From sequence record PP430142.1: a DNA stretch of 4,200 bases. The stretch is one strand, 5' to 3'. Origin of the DNA: Enterobacteria phage FrBurgundy. This document shows, one piece after another, positions 1 through 4,200 of this stretch. The translations under genes were made by a program, and so were the position numbers. The notes under the pieces are model-generated. The model saw only the letters and a program-made list of their open reading frames with translations, searched no databases and had not been told where the DNA came from. The first letter of the stretch is position 1. The number at the start of each line of letters is the position of its first letter.

Positions 1-56
1 TCCCCCCTTAGGGGGTCACCTCACACAGCAGTATTTCACTGAGTATGAGAGGACAT
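1..56 (+). other. 5' untranslated region of a Qbeta-like ssRNA phage genome, with a 5'-proximal C-rich/G-rich hairpin (cccccc 2..7, loop tta, ggggg 11..15)
   Basis: Seen in sequence: C-run 2..7 can pair with G-run 11..15 across a 3-nt loop. No ORF begins before position 45. Resembles the Qbeta 5' leader as I recall it, which starts with G residues that are absent here. Confidence 0.7.
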
Positions 57-1319
57 ATGCCTAAATTACCACGTGGTCTGCGTTTCGGAGCCGATAATGA
101 AATTCTTAATGACTTTCAAGAGCTCTGGTTTCCAGATCTCTTTATCGAATCTTCCGACACGCATCCGTGGTACACACTGAAAGGTCGTGTGCTGAACGCC
201 CATCTTGACGATCGCCTACCTAACGTAGGTGGCCGCCAGGTTAGACGTACTCCACATCGTGCTACCGTTCCGATTGCCTCTACAGGCCTTCGTCCGGTAA
301 CAACCGTTCAGTATGATCCTACAGCACTATCGTTCTTATTGAACGCTAGTGTTGATTGGGATTTCGGTAATGGCGATAGCGCGAACCTGGTCATTAATGA
401 CTTTCTGTTTCGCACTGTTGCACCTAAGGACTTCGATTTTTCGAATTCCTTAGTTCCTCGTTATACTCAGGCCTTCTCCGCTTTTAATGCTAAATATGGC
501 ACTATAATCGGTGAAGGGCTCGAGACTATAAAATATCTCGGGCTGTTACTGCGCAGACTGCGTGAGGGTTACCGCGCTGTTAAGCGTGGCGATTTACGTG
601 CTCTTCGTAGGGTTATCCAGTCTTACCATAATGGTAAATGGAAACCGACTACTGCTGGTAATCTCTGGCTTGAATTCCGTTATGGTCTTATGCCTCTCTT
701 CTATGACATTAAAGATGTCATGTTAGATTGGCAGAAACGCCACGATAGGATCCAACGCCTCCTTCGGTTTTCAGTCGGTCATGGTGAGGATTATGTTGTC
801 GAATTCGACAATCTATACCCTGCCGTCGCCTACTTTAAACTTAAAGGTGAGATTACACTCGAACGCCGTCACCGTCACGGTATATCCTACGCTAATCGCG
901 AGGGATATGCTGTTTTCGATAACGGTTCCCTTCGGCCTGTGTCCGATTGGAAGGAACTTGCCACTGCATTCATCAATCCGCATGAAGTTGCTTGGGAGTT
1001 AACTCCCTACAGCTTCGTTGTTGATTGGTTTTTGAATGTCGGTGACATACTTGCTCAGCAAGGTCAGCTATATCATAATATCGATATTGTAGACGGTTTT
1101 GACAGACGTGACATTCGTCTCAAATCTTTCACCATAAAAGGTGAACGAAATGGGCGACCTGTTAACGTTTCTGCTGACCTATCTGCTGTCGATACATTTT
1201 ATAGCCGATTCCATACGAGCAAGCTTCCGTTCGCTACACTTGATCTCGATACTACCTTCAGTTCGTATAAACACGTTCTGGATAGTATCTCTTTATTAAC
1301 CCAACGCATTAAGCGTTGA
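57..1319 (+). CDS. A2: Maturation protein A2 (420 aa), which in Qbeta-like phages binds the F-pilus and also serves as the lysis protein by inhibiting MurA
   Basis: ORF track 45..1319 in frame. Product begins MPKLPRGLRFGADNEILNDF at the ATG at 57..59, preceded by a purine-rich Shine-Dalgarno-like gagagg at 47..52. Length of 420 aa and the sequence match my recollection of Qbeta A2. Stop TGA at 1317..1319. The lysis function is established knowledge for Qbeta, not visible in the sequence. Confidence 0.92.
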   Translation: MPKLPRGLRFGADNEILNDFQELWFPDLFIESSDTHPWYTLKGRVLNAHLDDRLPNVGGRQVRRTPHRATVPIASTGLRPVTTVQYDPTALSFLLNASVDWDFGNGDSANLVINDFLFRTVAPKDFDFSNSLVPRYTQAFSAFNAKYGTIIGEGLETIKYLGLLLRRLREGYRAVKRGDLRALRRVIQSYHNGKWKPTTAGNLWLEFRYGLMPLFYDIKDVMLDWQKRHDRIQRLLRFSVGHGEDYVVEFDNLYPAVAYFKLKGEITLERRHRHGISYANREGYAVFDNGSLRPVSDWKELATAFINPHEVAWELTPYSFVVDWFLNVGDILAQQGQLYHNIDIVDGFDRRDIRLKSFTIKGERNGRPVNVSADLSAVDTFYSRFHTSKLPFATLDLDTTFSSYKHVLDSISLLTQRIKR

Positions 1320-1339
1320 AACTTTGGGTCAATTTGATC

Positions 1340-1741
1340 ATGGCAAAATTAGAGACTGTTACTTTAAGTAACATCGGGAAAGATGGAAAACAAACTCTGG
1401 TCCTCAACCCGCGTGGGGTAAATCCCACTAACGGTGTTGCCGCGCTTTCACAAGCGGGTGCAGTTCCTGCGCTGGAGAAGCGTGTTACCGTTTCGGTATC
1501 TCAGCCTTCTCGTAATCGTAAGAACTACAAGGTCCAGGTTAAAATCCAGAACCCGACCGCTTGTACTGCAAACGGTTCTTGTGACCCATCCGTTACTCGC
1601 CAGGCGTATGCTGACGTGACCTTTTCGTTCACGCAGTATAGTACCGATGAGGAACGAGCTTTTGTTCGTACAGAGCTTGTCGCTCTGCTCGCTAGTCCTC
1701 TGTTGATCGATGCTATCGATCAGCTGAATCCAGCGTATTGA
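1340..1741 (+). CDS. cp: Major coat protein (133 aa including initiator Met)
   Basis: ATG at 1340..1342 gives MAKLETVTLSNIGKDGKQTLVLNPRGVNPTNG...TACTANGSCDPSVTRQAYADVTFSFTQYSTDEERAFVRTELVALLASPLLIDAIDQLNPAY, recognisable as Qbeta-type coat including the two Cys in the FG loop. The ORF-track start at 1316 is a TTG overlapping the A2 stop and is not the real start. Terminates at UGA 1739..1741. Confidence 0.95.
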   Translation: MAKLETVTLSNIGKDGKQTLVLNPRGVNPTNGVAALSQAGAVPALEKRVTVSVSQPSRNRKNYKVQVKIQNPTACTANGSCDPSVTRQAYADVTFSFTQYSTDEERAFVRTELVALLASPLLIDAIDQLNPAY

Positions 1742-2338
1742 ACACTGCTCATTGCCGGTGGTGGCTCAGGGTCTAAACCCGATGATCCGGTTGTTGTTAC
1801 TCCGGATCCACCGATAGATCCGCCGCCAGGGACAGGTAAGTATACCTGTCCCTTCGCAATTTGGTCCCTAGAGGAGGTTTACGAGCCTCCTACTAAGAAC
1901 CGACCGTGGCCTATCTATAATGCTGCTCGACTCCCGCTTCGCCAGTTCGATGTTGCCCTTGAAGATCTTTTGGGCAATACGAAATGGCGTGATTGGGATT
2001 CGCGGCTTAGTTATACCACGTTCCGCGGTTGCCGTGGCAACGGTTATATTGACCTTGACGCGAGTTATCTTGCTACTGATCAGGCTATGCGTGATCAGAA
2101 GTACGATATTCGCGAGGGCAAGAAACCCGGTGCTTTCGGTAACATTGAGCGATTCATTTATCTTAAGTCGATAAATGCTTATTGCTCTCTTAGCGATATT
2201 GCGGCCTATCACGCCGATGGTGTGATAGTTGGCTTTTGGCGCGATCCATCTAGTGGTGGTGCCATACCGTTTGACTTCACTAAGTTTGATAAGACTAAAT
2301 GTCCTATTCAAGCCGTGATAGTCGTTCCTCGTGCTTAG
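1340..2338 (+). CDS. A1: A1 read-through protein (minor capsid protein): coat protein extended by suppression of the coat UGA (decoded as Trp), about 332 aa
   Basis: Same frame as coat (1340 and 1970 both position mod 3 = 2). I translated 1742..1969 by hand and found no in-frame stop between the coat UGA and TAG 2336..2338 (followed immediately by TAA 2339..2341). The extension reads TLLIAGGGSGSKPDDPVVVTPDPPIDPPPGTGKYTCPFAIWSLEEVYEPP...GNTKWRDWDSRLSYTTFRGCRGNGYIDLD...KCPIQAVIVVPRA, matching the Qbeta read-through domain as I recall it. Confidence 0.86.
1739..1741 (+). promoter_or_regulatory. Leaky UGA stop codon of the coat gene (programmed translational read-through site)
   Basis: tga at 1739..1741 followed by an open in-frame extension of 198 codons. 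Read-through of the coat UGA at a low percentage by tRNA-Trp is established for Qbeta. Confidence 0.85.
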
Positions 2339-2342
2339 TAAC

Positions 2343-2348
2343 TAAGGA
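2343..2348 (+). promoter_or_regulatory. Shine-Dalgarno sequence for the replicase gene (taagga)
   Basis: taagga at 2343..2348, 8 nt upstream of the replicase ATG at 2357. Confidence 0.7.
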
Positions 2349-2352
2349 TGAA

Positions 2353-2372
2353 ATGCATGTCTAAGACAGCAT
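2353..2372 (+). promoter_or_regulatory. Coat-protein translational operator hairpin spanning the replicase start codon
   Basis: atgcatgtc-taa-gacagcat: pairs 2353-2372, 2354-2371, 2355-2370, 2356-2369, bulged A2357, then 2358-2368, 2359-2367, 2360-2366, 2361-2365, with 3-nt loop taa 2362..2364. The replicase ATG (2357..2359) lies in the 5' arm. An 8-bp stem with bulged A and 3-nt loop is the known Qbeta operator geometry. Confidence 0.8.
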
Positions 2373-4126
2373 CTTCGCATAACTCTCTCAGCGCACAATT
2401 GCGCCGAGCTGCGAACACAAGAATTGAGGTCGAAGGTAACCTCGCACTTTCCATTGCCAACGATTTACTGTTGGCTTATGGTCAATCGCCATTTAGCTCT
2501 GAGGCTGAGTGTATTTCACTCAGTCCGAGATTCGACGGGACCCCGGATGACTTTAGGATAAATTATCTTAAAGCCGAGATCATGTCGAAGTATGACGATT
2601 TCAGCCTAGGTATTAATACCGAAGCTGCTGCCTGGGAAAAGTTCCTAGCAGCAGAGGCTGAATGTGCTTTAACGAACGCTCGTCTCTATAGGCCTGACTA
2701 CAGTGAGGATTTCAATTTCTCACTGGGCGAGTCATGTATTCACATGGCTCGCAGAAAAATAGTCAAGTTAATAGGAGATGCTCCGTCCGTTGAGGGTATG
2801 TTACGCCACTGCCGTTTTTCCGGTGGTGCCACAACAACGAATAACCGTTCGTACGGTCATCCGTCCTTCAAGTTTGCGCTTCCACAAGCGTGTACGCCTC
2901 GGGCTTTGAAGTATGTTTTAGCTCTTAGAGCTTCTACACACTTCGATATCAGAATTTCTGATATTAGCCCTTTTAATAAAGCAGTTACTGTACCTAAGAA
3001 CAGTAAGACTGATCGTTGTATTGCTATCGAACCCGGTTGGAATATGTTTTTTCAACTAGGTATCGGTGGCATCCTACGCGATCGGTTGCGTTGCTGGGGT
3101 ATCGATCTGAATGATCAGACGATAAATCAGCATCGCGCTCACGAAGGCTCCGTTACTAATAACTTAGCAACGGTTGATCTCTCGGCGGCAAGTGATTCTA
3201 TATCTCTTGCTCTCTGTGAGCTCTTATTGCCCCCAAGCTGGTTTGAGGTTCTTATGGATCTCAGATCACCTAAAGGGCGGTTGCCTGACGGTAGTGTTGT
3301 TACCTATGAGAAAATATCCTCTATGGGTAACGGGTACACATTCGAGCTTGAGTCGCTTATCTTTGCTTCTCTTGCTCGTTCCGTTTGTGAGATACTGGAC
3401 TTAGACTCGTCTGAGGTTACTGTCTACGGAGACGATATTATTTTACCGTCCTGTGCAGTACCTGCTCTTCAGGAAGTTTTTAAGTATGTTGGTTTTACAA
3501 CCAATACTAAAAAGACTTTCTCTGAGGGGCCGTTTAGAGAGTCGTGCGGTAAGCACTACTATTCTGGCGTAGATGTTACTCCCTTTTACATACGTCACCG
3601 TATAGTGAATCCTGCCGATTTAATACTGGTTTTGAATAACCTATATCGGTGGGCCACGATTGATGGCGTATGGGATCCTAGGGCCCATTCCGTATATCTC
3701 AAGTATCGTAAGTTGCTGCCTAAACAGCTGCAACGTAATACTATACCTGATGGTTACGGTGATGGAGCCCTCGTCGGATCGGTCTTGGTCAATCCTTTCG
3801 CGAAAAACCGCGGGTGGATCCGGTACGTACCGGTGATCATAGACCATACAAGGGACCGAGAGCGCGTCGAATCGGGGTCGTATCTCTACGACCTCTTTTC
3901 GCGTTGCTTCTCGGAAAGTAACGATGGGTTGCCTCTAAGGGGTCCGTCGAGTTGCGATTCTGTAGATCTATTTGCCATCGATCAGCTTATCTGCAGGAGT
4001 AATCCTACAAAGATAAGCAGGTCTACTGGCAAGTTCGATATACAGTATATCGCGTGCAGTAGCCGTGTTCTGGCACCCTACGGGGTCTTCCAGGGCACGA
4101 AGGTTGCATCTCTACACGAGGTGTAA
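2357..4126 (+). CDS. rep: RNA-dependent RNA polymerase, replicase beta-subunit (589 aa)
   Basis: ORF track 2348..4126. The true start is the ATG at 2357 (MSKTASSHNSLSAQLRRAANTRIEVEG...), not the ATG at 2348. Catalytic YGDD motif at 3425..3436 (EVTVYGDDIILP). Length and sequence match my recollection of the Qbeta replicase beta-subunit. Stop TAA at 4124..4126. Confidence 0.95.
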   Translation: MSKTASSHNSLSAQLRRAANTRIEVEGNLALSIANDLLLAYGQSPFSSEAECISLSPRFDGTPDDFRINYLKAEIMSKYDDFSLGINTEAAAWEKFLAAEAECALTNARLYRPDYSEDFNFSLGESCIHMARRKIVKLIGDAPSVEGMLRHCRFSGGATTTNNRSYGHPSFKFALPQACTPRALKYVLALRASTHFDIRISDISPFNKAVTVPKNSKTDRCIAIEPGWNMFFQLGIGGILRDRLRCWGIDLNDQTINQHRAHEGSVTNNLATVDLSAASDSISLALCELLLPPSWFEVLMDLRSPKGRLPDGSVVTYEKISSMGNGYTFELESLIFASLARSVCEILDLDSSEVTVYGDDIILPSCAVPALQEVFKYVGFTTNTKKTFSEGPFRESCGKHYYSGVDVTPFYIRHRIVNPADLILVLNNLYRWATIDGVWDPRAHSVYLKYRKLLPKQLQRNTIPDGYGDGALVGSVLVNPFAKNRGWIRYVPVIIDHTRDRERVESGSYLYDLFSRCFSESNDGLPLRGPSSCDSVDLFAIDQLICRSNPTKISRSTGKFDIQYIACSSRVLAPYGVFQGTKVASLHEV

Positions 4127-4200
4127 CCTGGGAGGGCGCCAATATGGCGCCTAATTGTGAATAAATTATCACAATTACTCTTACGAGTGAGAGAGGGGTC
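4127..4200 (+). other. 3' untranslated region (truncated at the window end) containing two perfect hairpins
   Basis: Hairpin 1: ggcgcc 4135..4140, loop aatat, ggcgcc 4146..4151, extendable by a G4134-U4152 wobble. Hairpin 2: aattgtga 4153..4160, loop ataaatta 4161..4168, tcacaatt 4169..4176. The window ends in gagagaggggtc with no terminal CCA, so the 3'-terminal hairpin looks incomplete. Confidence 0.75.

What the first reader, a model, noticed from the sequence alone, without database searches (positions are those of the whole stretch)
1..4200. Window is essentially one Qbeta-like ssRNA phage genome; no novel system evident
Four plus-strand genes in the diagnostic Qubevirus order (A2, coat, A1 read-through, replicase) fill the window with short intergenic regions, and the proteins are recognisable as Qbeta-type. 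There are scattered substitutions relative to the reference as I remember it, but no frameshifts or premature stops. Everything of note in the window is explained by this known architecture, so it is a strain or variant, not a new biological system.
Basis: partly seen in the sequence, partly recalled or inferred. Interest (0 to 1): 0.45.

Follow-up and report, generated by a model that had tools for sequence, protein, structure and literature searches.

The report
Known Qβ-like phage FrBurgundy genome
The window is the almost complete genome of an already isolated and deposited Qβ-type RNA phage of E. coli (FrBurgundy), with the standard four genes and no sign of anything new.

Summary
The 4200-base window is one plus-strand Qubevirus genome. 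It holds A2 (57-1319), coat (1340-1741, leaky UGA), the A1 read-through protein (1340-2338) and replicase (2357-4126), with untranslated stretches of 56, 20, 18 and 74 nt. It is not merely "a variant". All four proteins are exact matches to the GenBank proteins of Enterobacteria phage FrBurgundy (WZB35606-09), an F-pilus-dependent isolate already used in two defence-system studies. Nucleotide identity is 99.9% to FrHibiscus (three internal differences, one non-synonymous: A2 S412 against F412). It is 97.0% to FrMerlot, about 94.4% to laboratory Qβ, about 70% to MX1 and M11 over the whole genome, and 68-69% over partial matches to SP and FI. Substitutions are mostly synonymous, and there are no frameshifts or premature stops. 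The only length change against Qβ is 9 nt (3 codons) in the A1 linker. The coat-binding operator hairpin and the UGA context are identical to Qβ. The record lacks 4-5 nt at the 5' end and 22 nt, including the terminal CCA, at the 3' end. No alternative-frame or minus-strand ORF stays open in M11 and MX1 with its start codon kept. One caveat on the proposed check: RefSeq NC_001890, labelled "Qbeta", is really MX1, so it gives only 69.5-74.7% identity. Verdict: already known, ordinary.

The parts
1..56 (+). 5' untranslated leader, truncated by 4-5 nt (the GGGG(G)A terminus is missing). It contains the 5' hairpin CCCCC/GGGGG at 2-15 and the A2 Shine-Dalgarno region GAGAGGA.
   Evidence: Alignment with Qbeta, HL4-9 and VK; fold.
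57..1319 (+). A2 maturation/lysis protein gene, 420 aa.
   Evidence: Exact match to WZB35606.1, A2 of FrBurgundy. PF03863 E=4e-136. PDB 5VLZ/5VM7/7LHD E=1e-281. 95.7% aa identity to Qbeta A2.
1340..1741 (+). Coat protein gene, 133 aa including Met, ending in the leaky UGA.
   Evidence: Exact match to WZB35608.1, WZB35612.1 and ACT66734.1. PF01819 E=3e-61. 97.7% identity to Qbeta coat.
1739..1741 (+). Leaky UGA stop codon of the coat gene, read through to give A1. The context is GCG UAU UGA ACA CUG.
   Evidence: The deposited A1 protein has W at this position (P0019 equals the window translation with W).
1340..2338 (+). A1 minor capsid (read-through) protein, 332 aa. The read-through extension is 1742-2338.
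   Evidence: Exact match to WZB35607.1 and WZB35611.1. PF16814 E=1e-92. PDB 3RLC/3RLK E=3e-123.
1783..1800 (+). Length-variable linker of A1. It has 9 extra nt (3 codons) relative to Qbeta: KPDDPVVVTPDPP against KPDPVIPDPP.
   Evidence: A1 length is 329 aa in Qbeta, 330 in HL4-9 and FrSangria, 331 in GIII_C, and 332 in FrMerlot, FrHibiscus and the window.
1940..1989 (+). Conserved RNA hairpin inside the read-through region. The lineage-specific amino-acid changes at codons 62-74 of the read-through extension lie just upstream of it and within its 5' arm and loop.
   Evidence: Folds in all 10 genomes compared, with paired changes (UUCG/CGAA against UUUG/CAAA; GUUACCC/GGGUAAC in MX1). It is also the source of the spurious Rfam mir-4869 hit.
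2353..2372 (+). Coat-protein operator hairpin AUGCAUGUCUAAGACAGCAU: 8-bp stem, bulged A2357 (the first base of the replicase AUG) and a 3-nt loop. This is the translational repression site.
   Evidence: Fold of 2346-2378 gives -8.1 kcal/mol. The 18-nt intergenic region is 100% identical to all Qbeta-clade genomes. The repressor role is established Qbeta knowledge.
2357..4126 (+). Replicase beta subunit (RdRp), 589 aa, with GDD at residues 358-360 (nt 3428-3436).
   Evidence: Exact match to WZB35609.1 and WZB35613.1. PF03431 E=4e-217. PDB 3MMP, 3AGP, 4Q7J and 4R71 at about 1319 bits. 96.8% identity to Qbeta.
3586..3675 (+). Long stem-loop in the replicase gene, homologous to the region where FrSangria escapes the ApeA defence system.
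   Evidence: -31.2 kcal/mol, z=-3.8, 0 of 200 shuffles fold as well. The same fold occurs in FrHibiscus and FrMerlot. The preprint 10.64898/2026.03.20.713152 gives exactly 3586-3675 for FrBurgundy.
4127..4200 (+). 3' untranslated region with three hairpins, truncated: the last 22 nt (UGCUUUGCCCUCUCUCCUCCCA in FrMerlot and Qbeta) are missing.
   Evidence: Fold gives -27.6 kcal/mol, z=-4.2. Alignment.

Best explanation
The window is the deposited, coding-complete genome of Enterobacteria phage FrBurgundy. This is an F-pilus-specific plus-strand ssRNA phage of the Qbeta lineage (genus Qubevirus, within the range of Qubevirus durum, genogroup III), and it works as Qbeta does. What is shown here by sequence: four intact genes in the Qbeta order; proteins 96-98% identical to Qbeta proteins whose structures are solved; an unchanged UGA read-through context; an unchanged coat-binding operator hairpin over the replicase start; a GDD polymerase motif; and mostly synonymous divergence, as expected under purifying selection. 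What is inferred from established Qbeta biology: A2 binds the F pilus, carries the RNA in, and later lyses the cell by inhibiting MurA, so there is no separate lysis gene. Coat builds the T=3 capsid and represses replicase translation at the operator. A few per cent of ribosomes read the UGA as Trp to make A1, which is needed for infectivity. The replicase beta subunit recruits host EF-Tu, EF-Ts and ribosomal protein S1 to copy the RNA. The 5' GGGG and 3' ...CCCA termini needed for replication are absent only because the sequenced record is truncated.
For: Identity to the deposit: A2, coat, A1 (with W at the UGA) and replicase are exact matches to WZB35606.1-WZB35609.1. WZB35606.1 is named FrBurgundy A2 and sits on a 4200-nt contig. 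The published identity matrix for FrBurgundy (Qbeta 94.3, FrHibiscus 99.9, FrMerlot 97.0, FrSangria 94.7; PMC12169576 S1 Fig) matches the window's values (94.4, 99.9, 97.0, 94.5-94.8). The stem-loop coordinates given for FrBurgundy in the ApeA preprint (3586-3675) equal the window coordinates of the homologous segment. Architecture and families. Solved-structure relatives. Operator, UGA context and GDD. Synonymous to non-synonymous codon differences against Qbeta are 70/18, 9/3, 14/7 and 67/19. Host is E. coli MG1655 carrying F, and the isolate is credited to Quinones-Olvera et al. 2024.
Against: The FrBurgundy nucleotide record itself could not be fetched. It is absent from the 'phages' collection and from the gene-position index, so 100% nucleotide identity is inferred from the four exact proteins, the contig length and the published identities, not shown directly. 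None of the functional steps (MurA inhibition, read-through rate, operator binding) has been tested for this isolate as far as I could find. They are transferred from Qbeta at 96-98% protein identity.
Confidence: 0.97

Rival explanations
1. The window is a different, undeposited sibling of FrHibiscus and FrBurgundy (another plaque or a resequenced stock) that happens to encode the same four proteins as FrBurgundy.
For: The nucleotide record of FrBurgundy was not available for direct comparison. Only 3 internal positions separate the window from FrHibiscus, so such siblings clearly exist.
Against: The private A2 residue S412 is shared with FrBurgundy only (F in Qbeta, FrMerlot and FrHibiscus). 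The coordinate offset matches the published FrBurgundy coordinates.
Confidence: 0.02
2. The genome hides an additional overlapping gene. The candidate is the hydrophobic 84-aa +1-frame ORF at 1920-2174 inside the A1 read-through region, by analogy with the small overlapping lysis genes of other ssRNA phages.
For: The frame is free of stops in all 7 Qbeta-clade genomes compared as well as in the window, although HL4-9 lacks its ATG. The product is strongly hydrophobic.
Against: The frame has 3 stops in M11 and 2 in MX1, and the ATG is ACG in HL4-9 and MX1. At 92-97% nucleotide identity an 84-codon open frame persists easily by chance. Alternative frames of coding sequence are commonly hydrophobic. 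Qbeta lysis is fully accounted for by A2 (established knowledge), and no Shine-Dalgarno sequence is evident.
Confidence: 0.01
3. The window represents a new Qubevirus species rather than a Qbeta strain.
For: The GenBank taxonomy of FrHibiscus, FrMerlot and FrSangria stops at genus level. Against the RefSeq record labelled Qbeta, identity is only 69.5-74.7%.
Against: That RefSeq record is MX1. Identity to genuine Qbeta is 94.4% at nucleotide level and 96.8% for the RdRp protein. M11 and MX1, at about 70% RdRp identity, are themselves filed under Qubevirus durum in NCBI taxonomy.
Confidence: 0.01

Closest known systems
Enterobacteria phage FrBurgundy (proteins WZB35606.1-WZB35609.1; isolate credited to Quinones-Olvera et al. 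2024)
   Same: All four proteins are identical, the contig length is 4200 nt, and the published pairwise identities and coordinates agree.
   Different: Nothing detected. The nucleotide record was not directly comparable with the tools at hand.
Enterobacteria phage FrHibiscus, PP430143.1
   Same: 99.9% nucleotide identity, with identical coat, A1 and replicase proteins.
   Different: Three internal substitutions: window 776 C/T and 2803 A/G are synonymous, and 1291 C/T gives A2 S412 against F412. The record ends are shifted by 4 nt.
Escherichia phage Qbeta, laboratory lineage (AB971354.1 Anc(P1), AY099114.1, GQ1539xx)
   Same: Same gene order, same operator hairpin and intergenic regions (100% identical), and same UGA context. 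Identity is 94.4% at nucleotide level, and at protein level A2 95.7%, coat 97.7%, A1 95.8% and replicase 96.8%.
   Different: 226 substitutions. A 3-codon longer A1 linker. A cluster of six amino-acid changes at codons 62-74 of the read-through extension. An in-frame AUG 12 nt upstream of the A2 start.
MX1 (AF059242, equal to RefSeq NC_001890.1 labelled 'Qbeta') and M11 (AF052431)
   Same: Same genus and architecture, with read-through A1 and no separate lysis gene.
   Different: Only about 70% nucleotide identity over the whole genome. Replicase is about 70% and A2 64-67% identical at protein level.
Genogroup IV Qubevirus (SP, FI / Qubevirus faecium)
   Same: Same genus and gene order.
   Different: Only 42-47% of the window aligns, at 68-69% identity.
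MS2 (Emesvirus zinderi)
   Same: Same family (Fiersviridae), F-pilus-specific, with maturation, coat and replicase genes.
   Different: About 37% nucleotide identity to FrBurgundy according to PMC12169576 S1 Fig. MS2 has a separate overlapping lysis gene and no read-through protein (established knowledge).

Membership tests
Fiersviridae (ssRNA phages, formerly Leviviridae) | Small genome of about 3.5-4.3 kb with maturation, coat and RdRp genes on one strand | tested here: met
   ORFs at 57-1319, 1340-1741 and 2357-4126, all on the + strand. PF03863, PF01819 and PF03431.
Fiersviridae (ssRNA phages, formerly Leviviridae) | RdRp with the palm GDD motif, homologous to the Qbeta replicase beta subunit | tested here: met
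   GDD at residues 358-360. About 1319 bits to PDB 3MMP, 4Q7J and 3AGP.
Genus Qubevirus | Coat gene ends in a leaky UGA, followed in frame by a read-through domain that gives A1 | tested here: met
   TGA at 1739-1741 is the only in-frame stop in 1340-2338. PF16814 E=1e-92. PDB 3RLC. Actual read-through was not measured.
Genus Qubevirus | No separate lysis gene; lysis is carried out by the maturation protein A2 | tested here: inconclusive
   No alternative-frame or minus-strand ORF of 40 aa or more stays open in M11 and MX1 with its start codon kept. The four short ORFs that are stop-free in one or both of them (2424-2561 and 2778-2909 on +; 2335-2460 and 2918-3055 on -) have no start codon there, and 2424-2561 and 2918-3055 carry stops in MX1. 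A2 is 95.7% identical to Qbeta A2, which has a solved MurA complex (5VM7). Lysis by this A2 was not tested.
Genus Qubevirus | Coat-binding operator hairpin with a 3-nt loop and bulged A at the replicase start | tested here: met
   AUGCAUGUCUAAGACAGCAU at 2353-2372 folds as expected. The region is identical to Qbeta.
Qubevirus durum (Qbeta species, genogroup III) | High RdRp and genome identity to Qbeta. My recollection, not verified, is that the ICTV species threshold in Leviviricetes is about 80% RdRp amino-acid identity. | tested here: met
   RdRp is 96.8% and the genome 94.4% identical to Qbeta Anc(P1). This is far closer than M11 and MX1 (about 70%), which NCBI also files in this species.
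Qubevirus durum (Qbeta species, genogroup III) | Infects E. coli through the F pilus | not testable with these tools
   The sister records list the host as E. coli MG1655 + F912. PMC12169576 S3 Table lists FrBurgundy as propagated on MG1655+F.
Complete genome of a Qbeta-type phage | 5'-GGGG... and ...CCCA-3' termini required by the replicase | tested here: not met
   The window starts at UCCCCCC and ends at ...AGGGGUC. Against Qbeta, FrMerlot and HL4-9, 4-5 nt at the 5' end and 22 nt at the 3' end are missing. This is a property of the sequenced record, not of the virus.

The most novel reading that the evidence does not exclude
The most novel reading not excluded is that the 84-codon hydrophobic +1-frame ORF at 1920-2174 is a genuine hidden overlapping gene of the Qbeta clade. 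It lies inside the A1 read-through region and is free of stops in every Qbeta-clade genome compared. A milder version is that the FrBurgundy/FrHibiscus-specific patch of six amino-acid changes at codons 62-74 of the read-through extension, together with the strengthened hairpin at 1940-1989, alters host or defence-system interactions.
Probability: 0.02. Interest if true: 0.5.

Novelty: already known. Interest (0 to 1): 0.04.

Why it matters
It matters little as biology. This is a previously isolated, sequenced and experimentally used Qβ-like phage with the textbook gene set. The practical lessons are for the scan. First, the window can be retired as known. Second, identity thresholds measured against "RefSeq Qbeta" are unsafe, because NC_001890 is really MX1. 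Third, the record is coding-complete but lacks both replicase-recognition termini, so it could not serve unmodified as an infectious-clone template.

Tried and rejected
- Fetching the presumed FrBurgundy record by the neighbouring accession PP430142 failed: it is not in the collections.
- An exact-protein look-up of encoding contigs for the window's A2 found nothing on record.
- An exact 35-mer spanning the private variant at 1291 has no match in IMG/VR viral contigs.
- The Rfam scan at E<=1 gave only two sub-threshold chance hits: mir-4869 (28 bits against a gathering score of 70) and Pseudomonas P24 (17 against 100). Rfam has no usable Qβ element family for this window.
- Seventeen alternative-frame and minus-strand ORFs of 40 aa or more were tested for conservation. 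Thirteen are interrupted in both M11 and MX1. The four that are stop-free in at least one of them (2424-2561 and 2778-2909 on +, 2335-2460 and 2918-3055 on -) are only 41-45 aa and have no start codon in either. The 147-aa minus-strand ORF 1868-2311 is also broken in FrMerlot, GIII_C, HL4-9 and VK. I rejected all of them as genes.
- The primary isolation paper could not be confirmed in the library. The Phage DisCo paper does not mention these phages, and my query on the Quinones-Olvera paper failed on a syntax error and was not repeated. The attribution therefore rests on the S3 Table of PMC12169576.
- The large protein-database searches and structure prediction were deliberately not run, because exact matches and solved structures already answer the question.
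Full report
**1. Observation**

The six-frame ORF list and the transfer of annotation from the closest records give four plus-strand genes:
- A2 at 57-1319 (420 aa).
- Coat at 1340-1741 (133 aa, stop TGA).
- A1 at 1340-2338 (332 aa). Its only in-frame stop is the coat TGA at codon 134.
- Replicase at 2357-4126 (589 aa).

The non-coding stretches are 56, 20, 18 and 74 nt. Pfam assigns Phage_mat-A, Levi_coat, Read-through and RNA_replicase_B with E-values from 3e-61 to 4e-217.

**2. What it is**

Megablast against 50,697 phage records finds 82 matching records, all Qbeta-group. The main identities are:

| Record | Nucleotide identity to the window |
|---|---|
| PP430143.1, FrHibiscus | 99.9% over window 6-4200 |
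| FrMerlot | 97.0% |
| Qbeta GIII_C | 96.1% |
| HL4-9 | 95.7% |
| FrSangria | 94.8% |
| Laboratory Qbeta (AB971354, AY099114, GQ1539xx) | 94.0-94.5% |
| VK group | 91.9% |
| M11, MX1 | about 75% over 83% of the window |

The more sensitive blastn adds SP and FI at 68-69% over 42-47% of the window, and beyond that only tiny fragments of metagenomic ssRNA phages.

A base-by-base comparison with FrHibiscus shows only three internal differences, at 776, 1291 and 2803, plus a 4-nt shift of the record ends. Two of the three are synonymous. The third makes A2 residue 412 Ser instead of Phe.

An exact-sequence look-up shows that this A2 protein is WZB35606.1, [quoted passage not shown], on a 4200-nt contig. 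The coat and replicase proteins equal WZB35608.1 and WZB35609.1. The A1 translation with Trp at the UGA equals WZB35607.1.

Two independent published items agree:
- The identity matrix in S1 Fig of PMC12169576 lists FrBurgundy at 94.3% to Qbeta, 99.9% to FrHibiscus, 97.0% to FrMerlot and 94.7% to FrSangria. My values for the window are 94.4, 99.8-99.9, 97.0 and 94.5-94.8.
- The ApeA preprint gives a stem-loop at 3586-3675 in FrBurgundy and 3582-3671 in FrHibiscus. This is exactly the 4-nt offset seen here.

I conclude that the window is the FrBurgundy deposit. The nucleotide record itself was not in the collections, so this last step is an inference from four exact proteins, the contig length and the published numbers.

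**3. Provenance in the literature**

PMC12169576 states that the Qbeta-like phages FrSangria, FrMerlot, FrHibiscus and FrBurgundy came from M. Baym and colleagues. Its S3 Table credits Quinones-Olvera et al. 2024 and lists the host as MG1655+F. These phages were not restricted by the bNACHT proteins tested. The preprint 10.64898/2026.03.20.713152 reports that Ec1ApeA reduces the plaque size of FrBurgundy, FrHibiscus and FrMerlot and strongly restricts FrSangria, with escape mutations in a replicase-gene stem-loop. PMC12724129 uses FrHibiscus as a phylogenetic reference.

**4. How it works**

Shown by sequence:
- The genes are intact.
- The proteins are 95.7-97.7% identical to Qbeta.
- They match solved structures almost full-length: A2 to 5VLZ/5VM7/7LHD, the read-through domain to 3RLC/3RLK, and replicase to 3MMP/3AGP/4Q7J/4R71.
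- GDD lies at replicase residues 358-360, and the stop context is UAU UGA ACA.
- Both intergenic regions are 100% identical to every Qbeta-clade genome.
- The operator AUGCAUGUCUAAGACAGCAU at 2353-2372 folds into the 8-bp stem, bulged-A, 3-nt-loop hairpin.
- Codon differences from Qbeta are mostly synonymous: A2 70/18, coat 9/3, read-through 14/7 and replicase 67/19. This is the signature of purifying selection on all four genes.

Inferred from established Qbeta biology (my knowledge, consistent with the record notes and with the EF-Ts/EF-Tu/replicase fusion chains):
- A2 binds the F pilus and later blocks MurA to cause lysis.
- Coat assembles the capsid and represses replicase translation at the operator.
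- Rare UGA read-through gives A1.
- The beta subunit works together with EF-Tu, EF-Ts and S1.

**5. Differences from Qbeta, none of which is architectural**

- There are 226 substitutions and 9 extra bases in the A1 linker. Linker length varies among strains, giving A1 of 329-332 aa.
- FrBurgundy and FrHibiscus share a private cluster of six amino-acid changes at codons 62-74 of the read-through extension: VELQPREFDVALK becomes ARLPLRQFDVALE. It lies just upstream of, and within the 5' arm and loop of, a hairpin at 1940-1989. That hairpin is predicted in all ten genomes with paired changes.
- An in-frame AUG at 45 is a common polymorphism, also present in GIII_C, HL4-9 and VK.
- The ApeA-linked stem-loop folds at -31.2 kcal/mol (z = -3.8), identically to FrHibiscus and FrMerlot.

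**6. Search for anything hidden**

Seventeen alternative-frame or minus-strand ORFs of 40 aa or more were projected onto nine relatives.
- Thirteen are interrupted in both M11 and MX1.
- Four short ones are stop-free in at least one of the two: 2424-2561 and 2778-2909 on the plus strand, and 2335-2460 and 2918-3055 on the minus strand (41-45 aa). None of the four has a start codon in either M11 or MX1.
- The 84-aa hydrophobic ORF 1920-2174 is free of stops throughout the Qbeta clade. It has 2-3 stops in M11 and MX1, and its ATG is lost in HL4-9 and MX1.
- The 147-aa minus-strand ORF 1868-2311 is broken in six relatives.

Rfam gives only sub-threshold chance hits. I found no evidence for an extra gene or element.

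**7. Completeness**

The window begins UCCCCCCUUAGGGGG, whereas Qbeta, HL4-9 and VK begin GGGG(G)ACCCCC. It ends ...GAGAGAGGGGUC, 22 nt short of the ...CUCCUCCCA terminus present in FrMerlot, Qbeta, HL4-9, VK, M11 and MX1. The deposit is therefore coding-complete but truncated at both ends.

**8.

NC_001890.1 is titled "Enterobacteria phage Qbeta", but its locus tags are MX1p1-4 and its hit is identical to that of AF059242. The window is 74.7% identical to it over 83% of its length, and 69.5% over the full alignment. Using that record alone would have falsely triggered the "below about 70 percent" refutation.

**9. Verdict**

The window is already known (FrBurgundy), and its interest is very low.

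Noticed in passing
L008 (NC_001890.1), whole record: The RefSeq record titled 'Enterobacteria phage Qbeta' carries MX1 locus tags (MX1p1-4) and gives the same hit as AF059242. It is only 69.5-74.7% identical to genuine Qbeta-lineage genomes such as this window. It also names A2 'head maturation protease' and the coat protein 'minor head protein'.
   Followed up: partly
L004 (LC710219.1) 1335-1736 and 1335-2330: An annotation mix-up in a deposited Qbeta GIII_C record. The coat-gene coordinates are labelled 'lys: lysis protein A2' and the A1 coordinates 'cp: capsid protein A1'. Its replicase feature also ends 9 nt short of the homologous replicase stop in the window (4111 against an expected 4120; 1763 nt, not a multiple of three).
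   Followed up: no
window 1291 (A2 codon 412): TCT (Ser) here against TTT (Phe) in FrHibiscus, FrMerlot and Qbeta. This is the only protein-level difference between FrBurgundy and FrHibiscus, 9 residues from the A2 C-terminus.
   Followed up: partly
window 1925-1963 (codons 62-74 of the read-through extension) and hairpin 1940-1989: FrBurgundy and FrHibiscus share six amino-acid changes within 13 residues (VELQPREFDVALK becomes ARLPLRQFDVALE), absent from FrMerlot, Qbeta, FrSangria and HL4-9. The changes lie just upstream of, and within the 5' arm and loop of, a conserved hairpin, whose predicted stability rises from about -19 to -24.8 kcal/mol. GTCGAA to GCTCGA could be a compensated +1/-1 frameshift.
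   Followed up: partly
window 1742-2338: The read-through domain has a higher share of non-synonymous codon differences than the other genes in some comparisons. Against FrMerlot it is 9 synonymous / 11 non-synonymous versus 79/23 elsewhere (Fisher p=0.006). Against GIII_C p=0.009. The difference is not significant against Qbeta Anc(P1) (p=0.27).
   Followed up: partly
window 45-47: An in-frame AUG lies 12 nt upstream of the annotated A2 start (UAUAAGAGG in Qbeta becomes UAUGAGAGG) and overlaps the Shine-Dalgarno region. It is shared with FrHibiscus, GIII_C, HL4-9 and VK, so it is a common natural polymorphism. It could add MRGH to A2 if used.
   Followed up: partly
window 1920-2174 (+) and 1868-2311 (-): An 84-aa hydrophobic +1-frame ORF is free of stops across the Qbeta clade but broken in M11 and MX1. 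A 147-aa minus-strand ORF is broken in six relatives. Both are judged to be chance.
   Followed up: yes
protein cluster of window 2357-4123: The 90% identity cluster holding the Qbeta replicase also contains many 283-aa bacterial EF-Ts proteins (Pectobacterium, Kluyvera). This is almost certainly because engineered EF-Ts/EF-Tu/replicase fusion chains (PDB 3AGP and others) bridge them. It is a clustering artefact to bear in mind.
   Followed up: partly
protein cluster of window 1340-1738: A 137-aa 'hypothetical protein FIB47_13520, partial [Lactococcus cremoris]' (TNU90119.1, on a 428-nt contig) clusters with the Qbeta coat protein. It is probably Qbeta contamination in a bacterial assembly.
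   Followed up: no
L005 (PP430145.1, FrSangria): The record held here is 4183 nt, whereas the ApeA preprint quotes 4215 nt for the same accession. The published stem-loop coordinates for FrSangria therefore do not map onto this copy.
   Followed up: no
window 1 and L003 position 1: The window and FrMerlot both begin at the same base with U, where Qbeta, HL4-9 and VK have A after GGGG(G). This suggests a shared library or assembly truncation, and possibly a non-templated first base.
   Followed up: no
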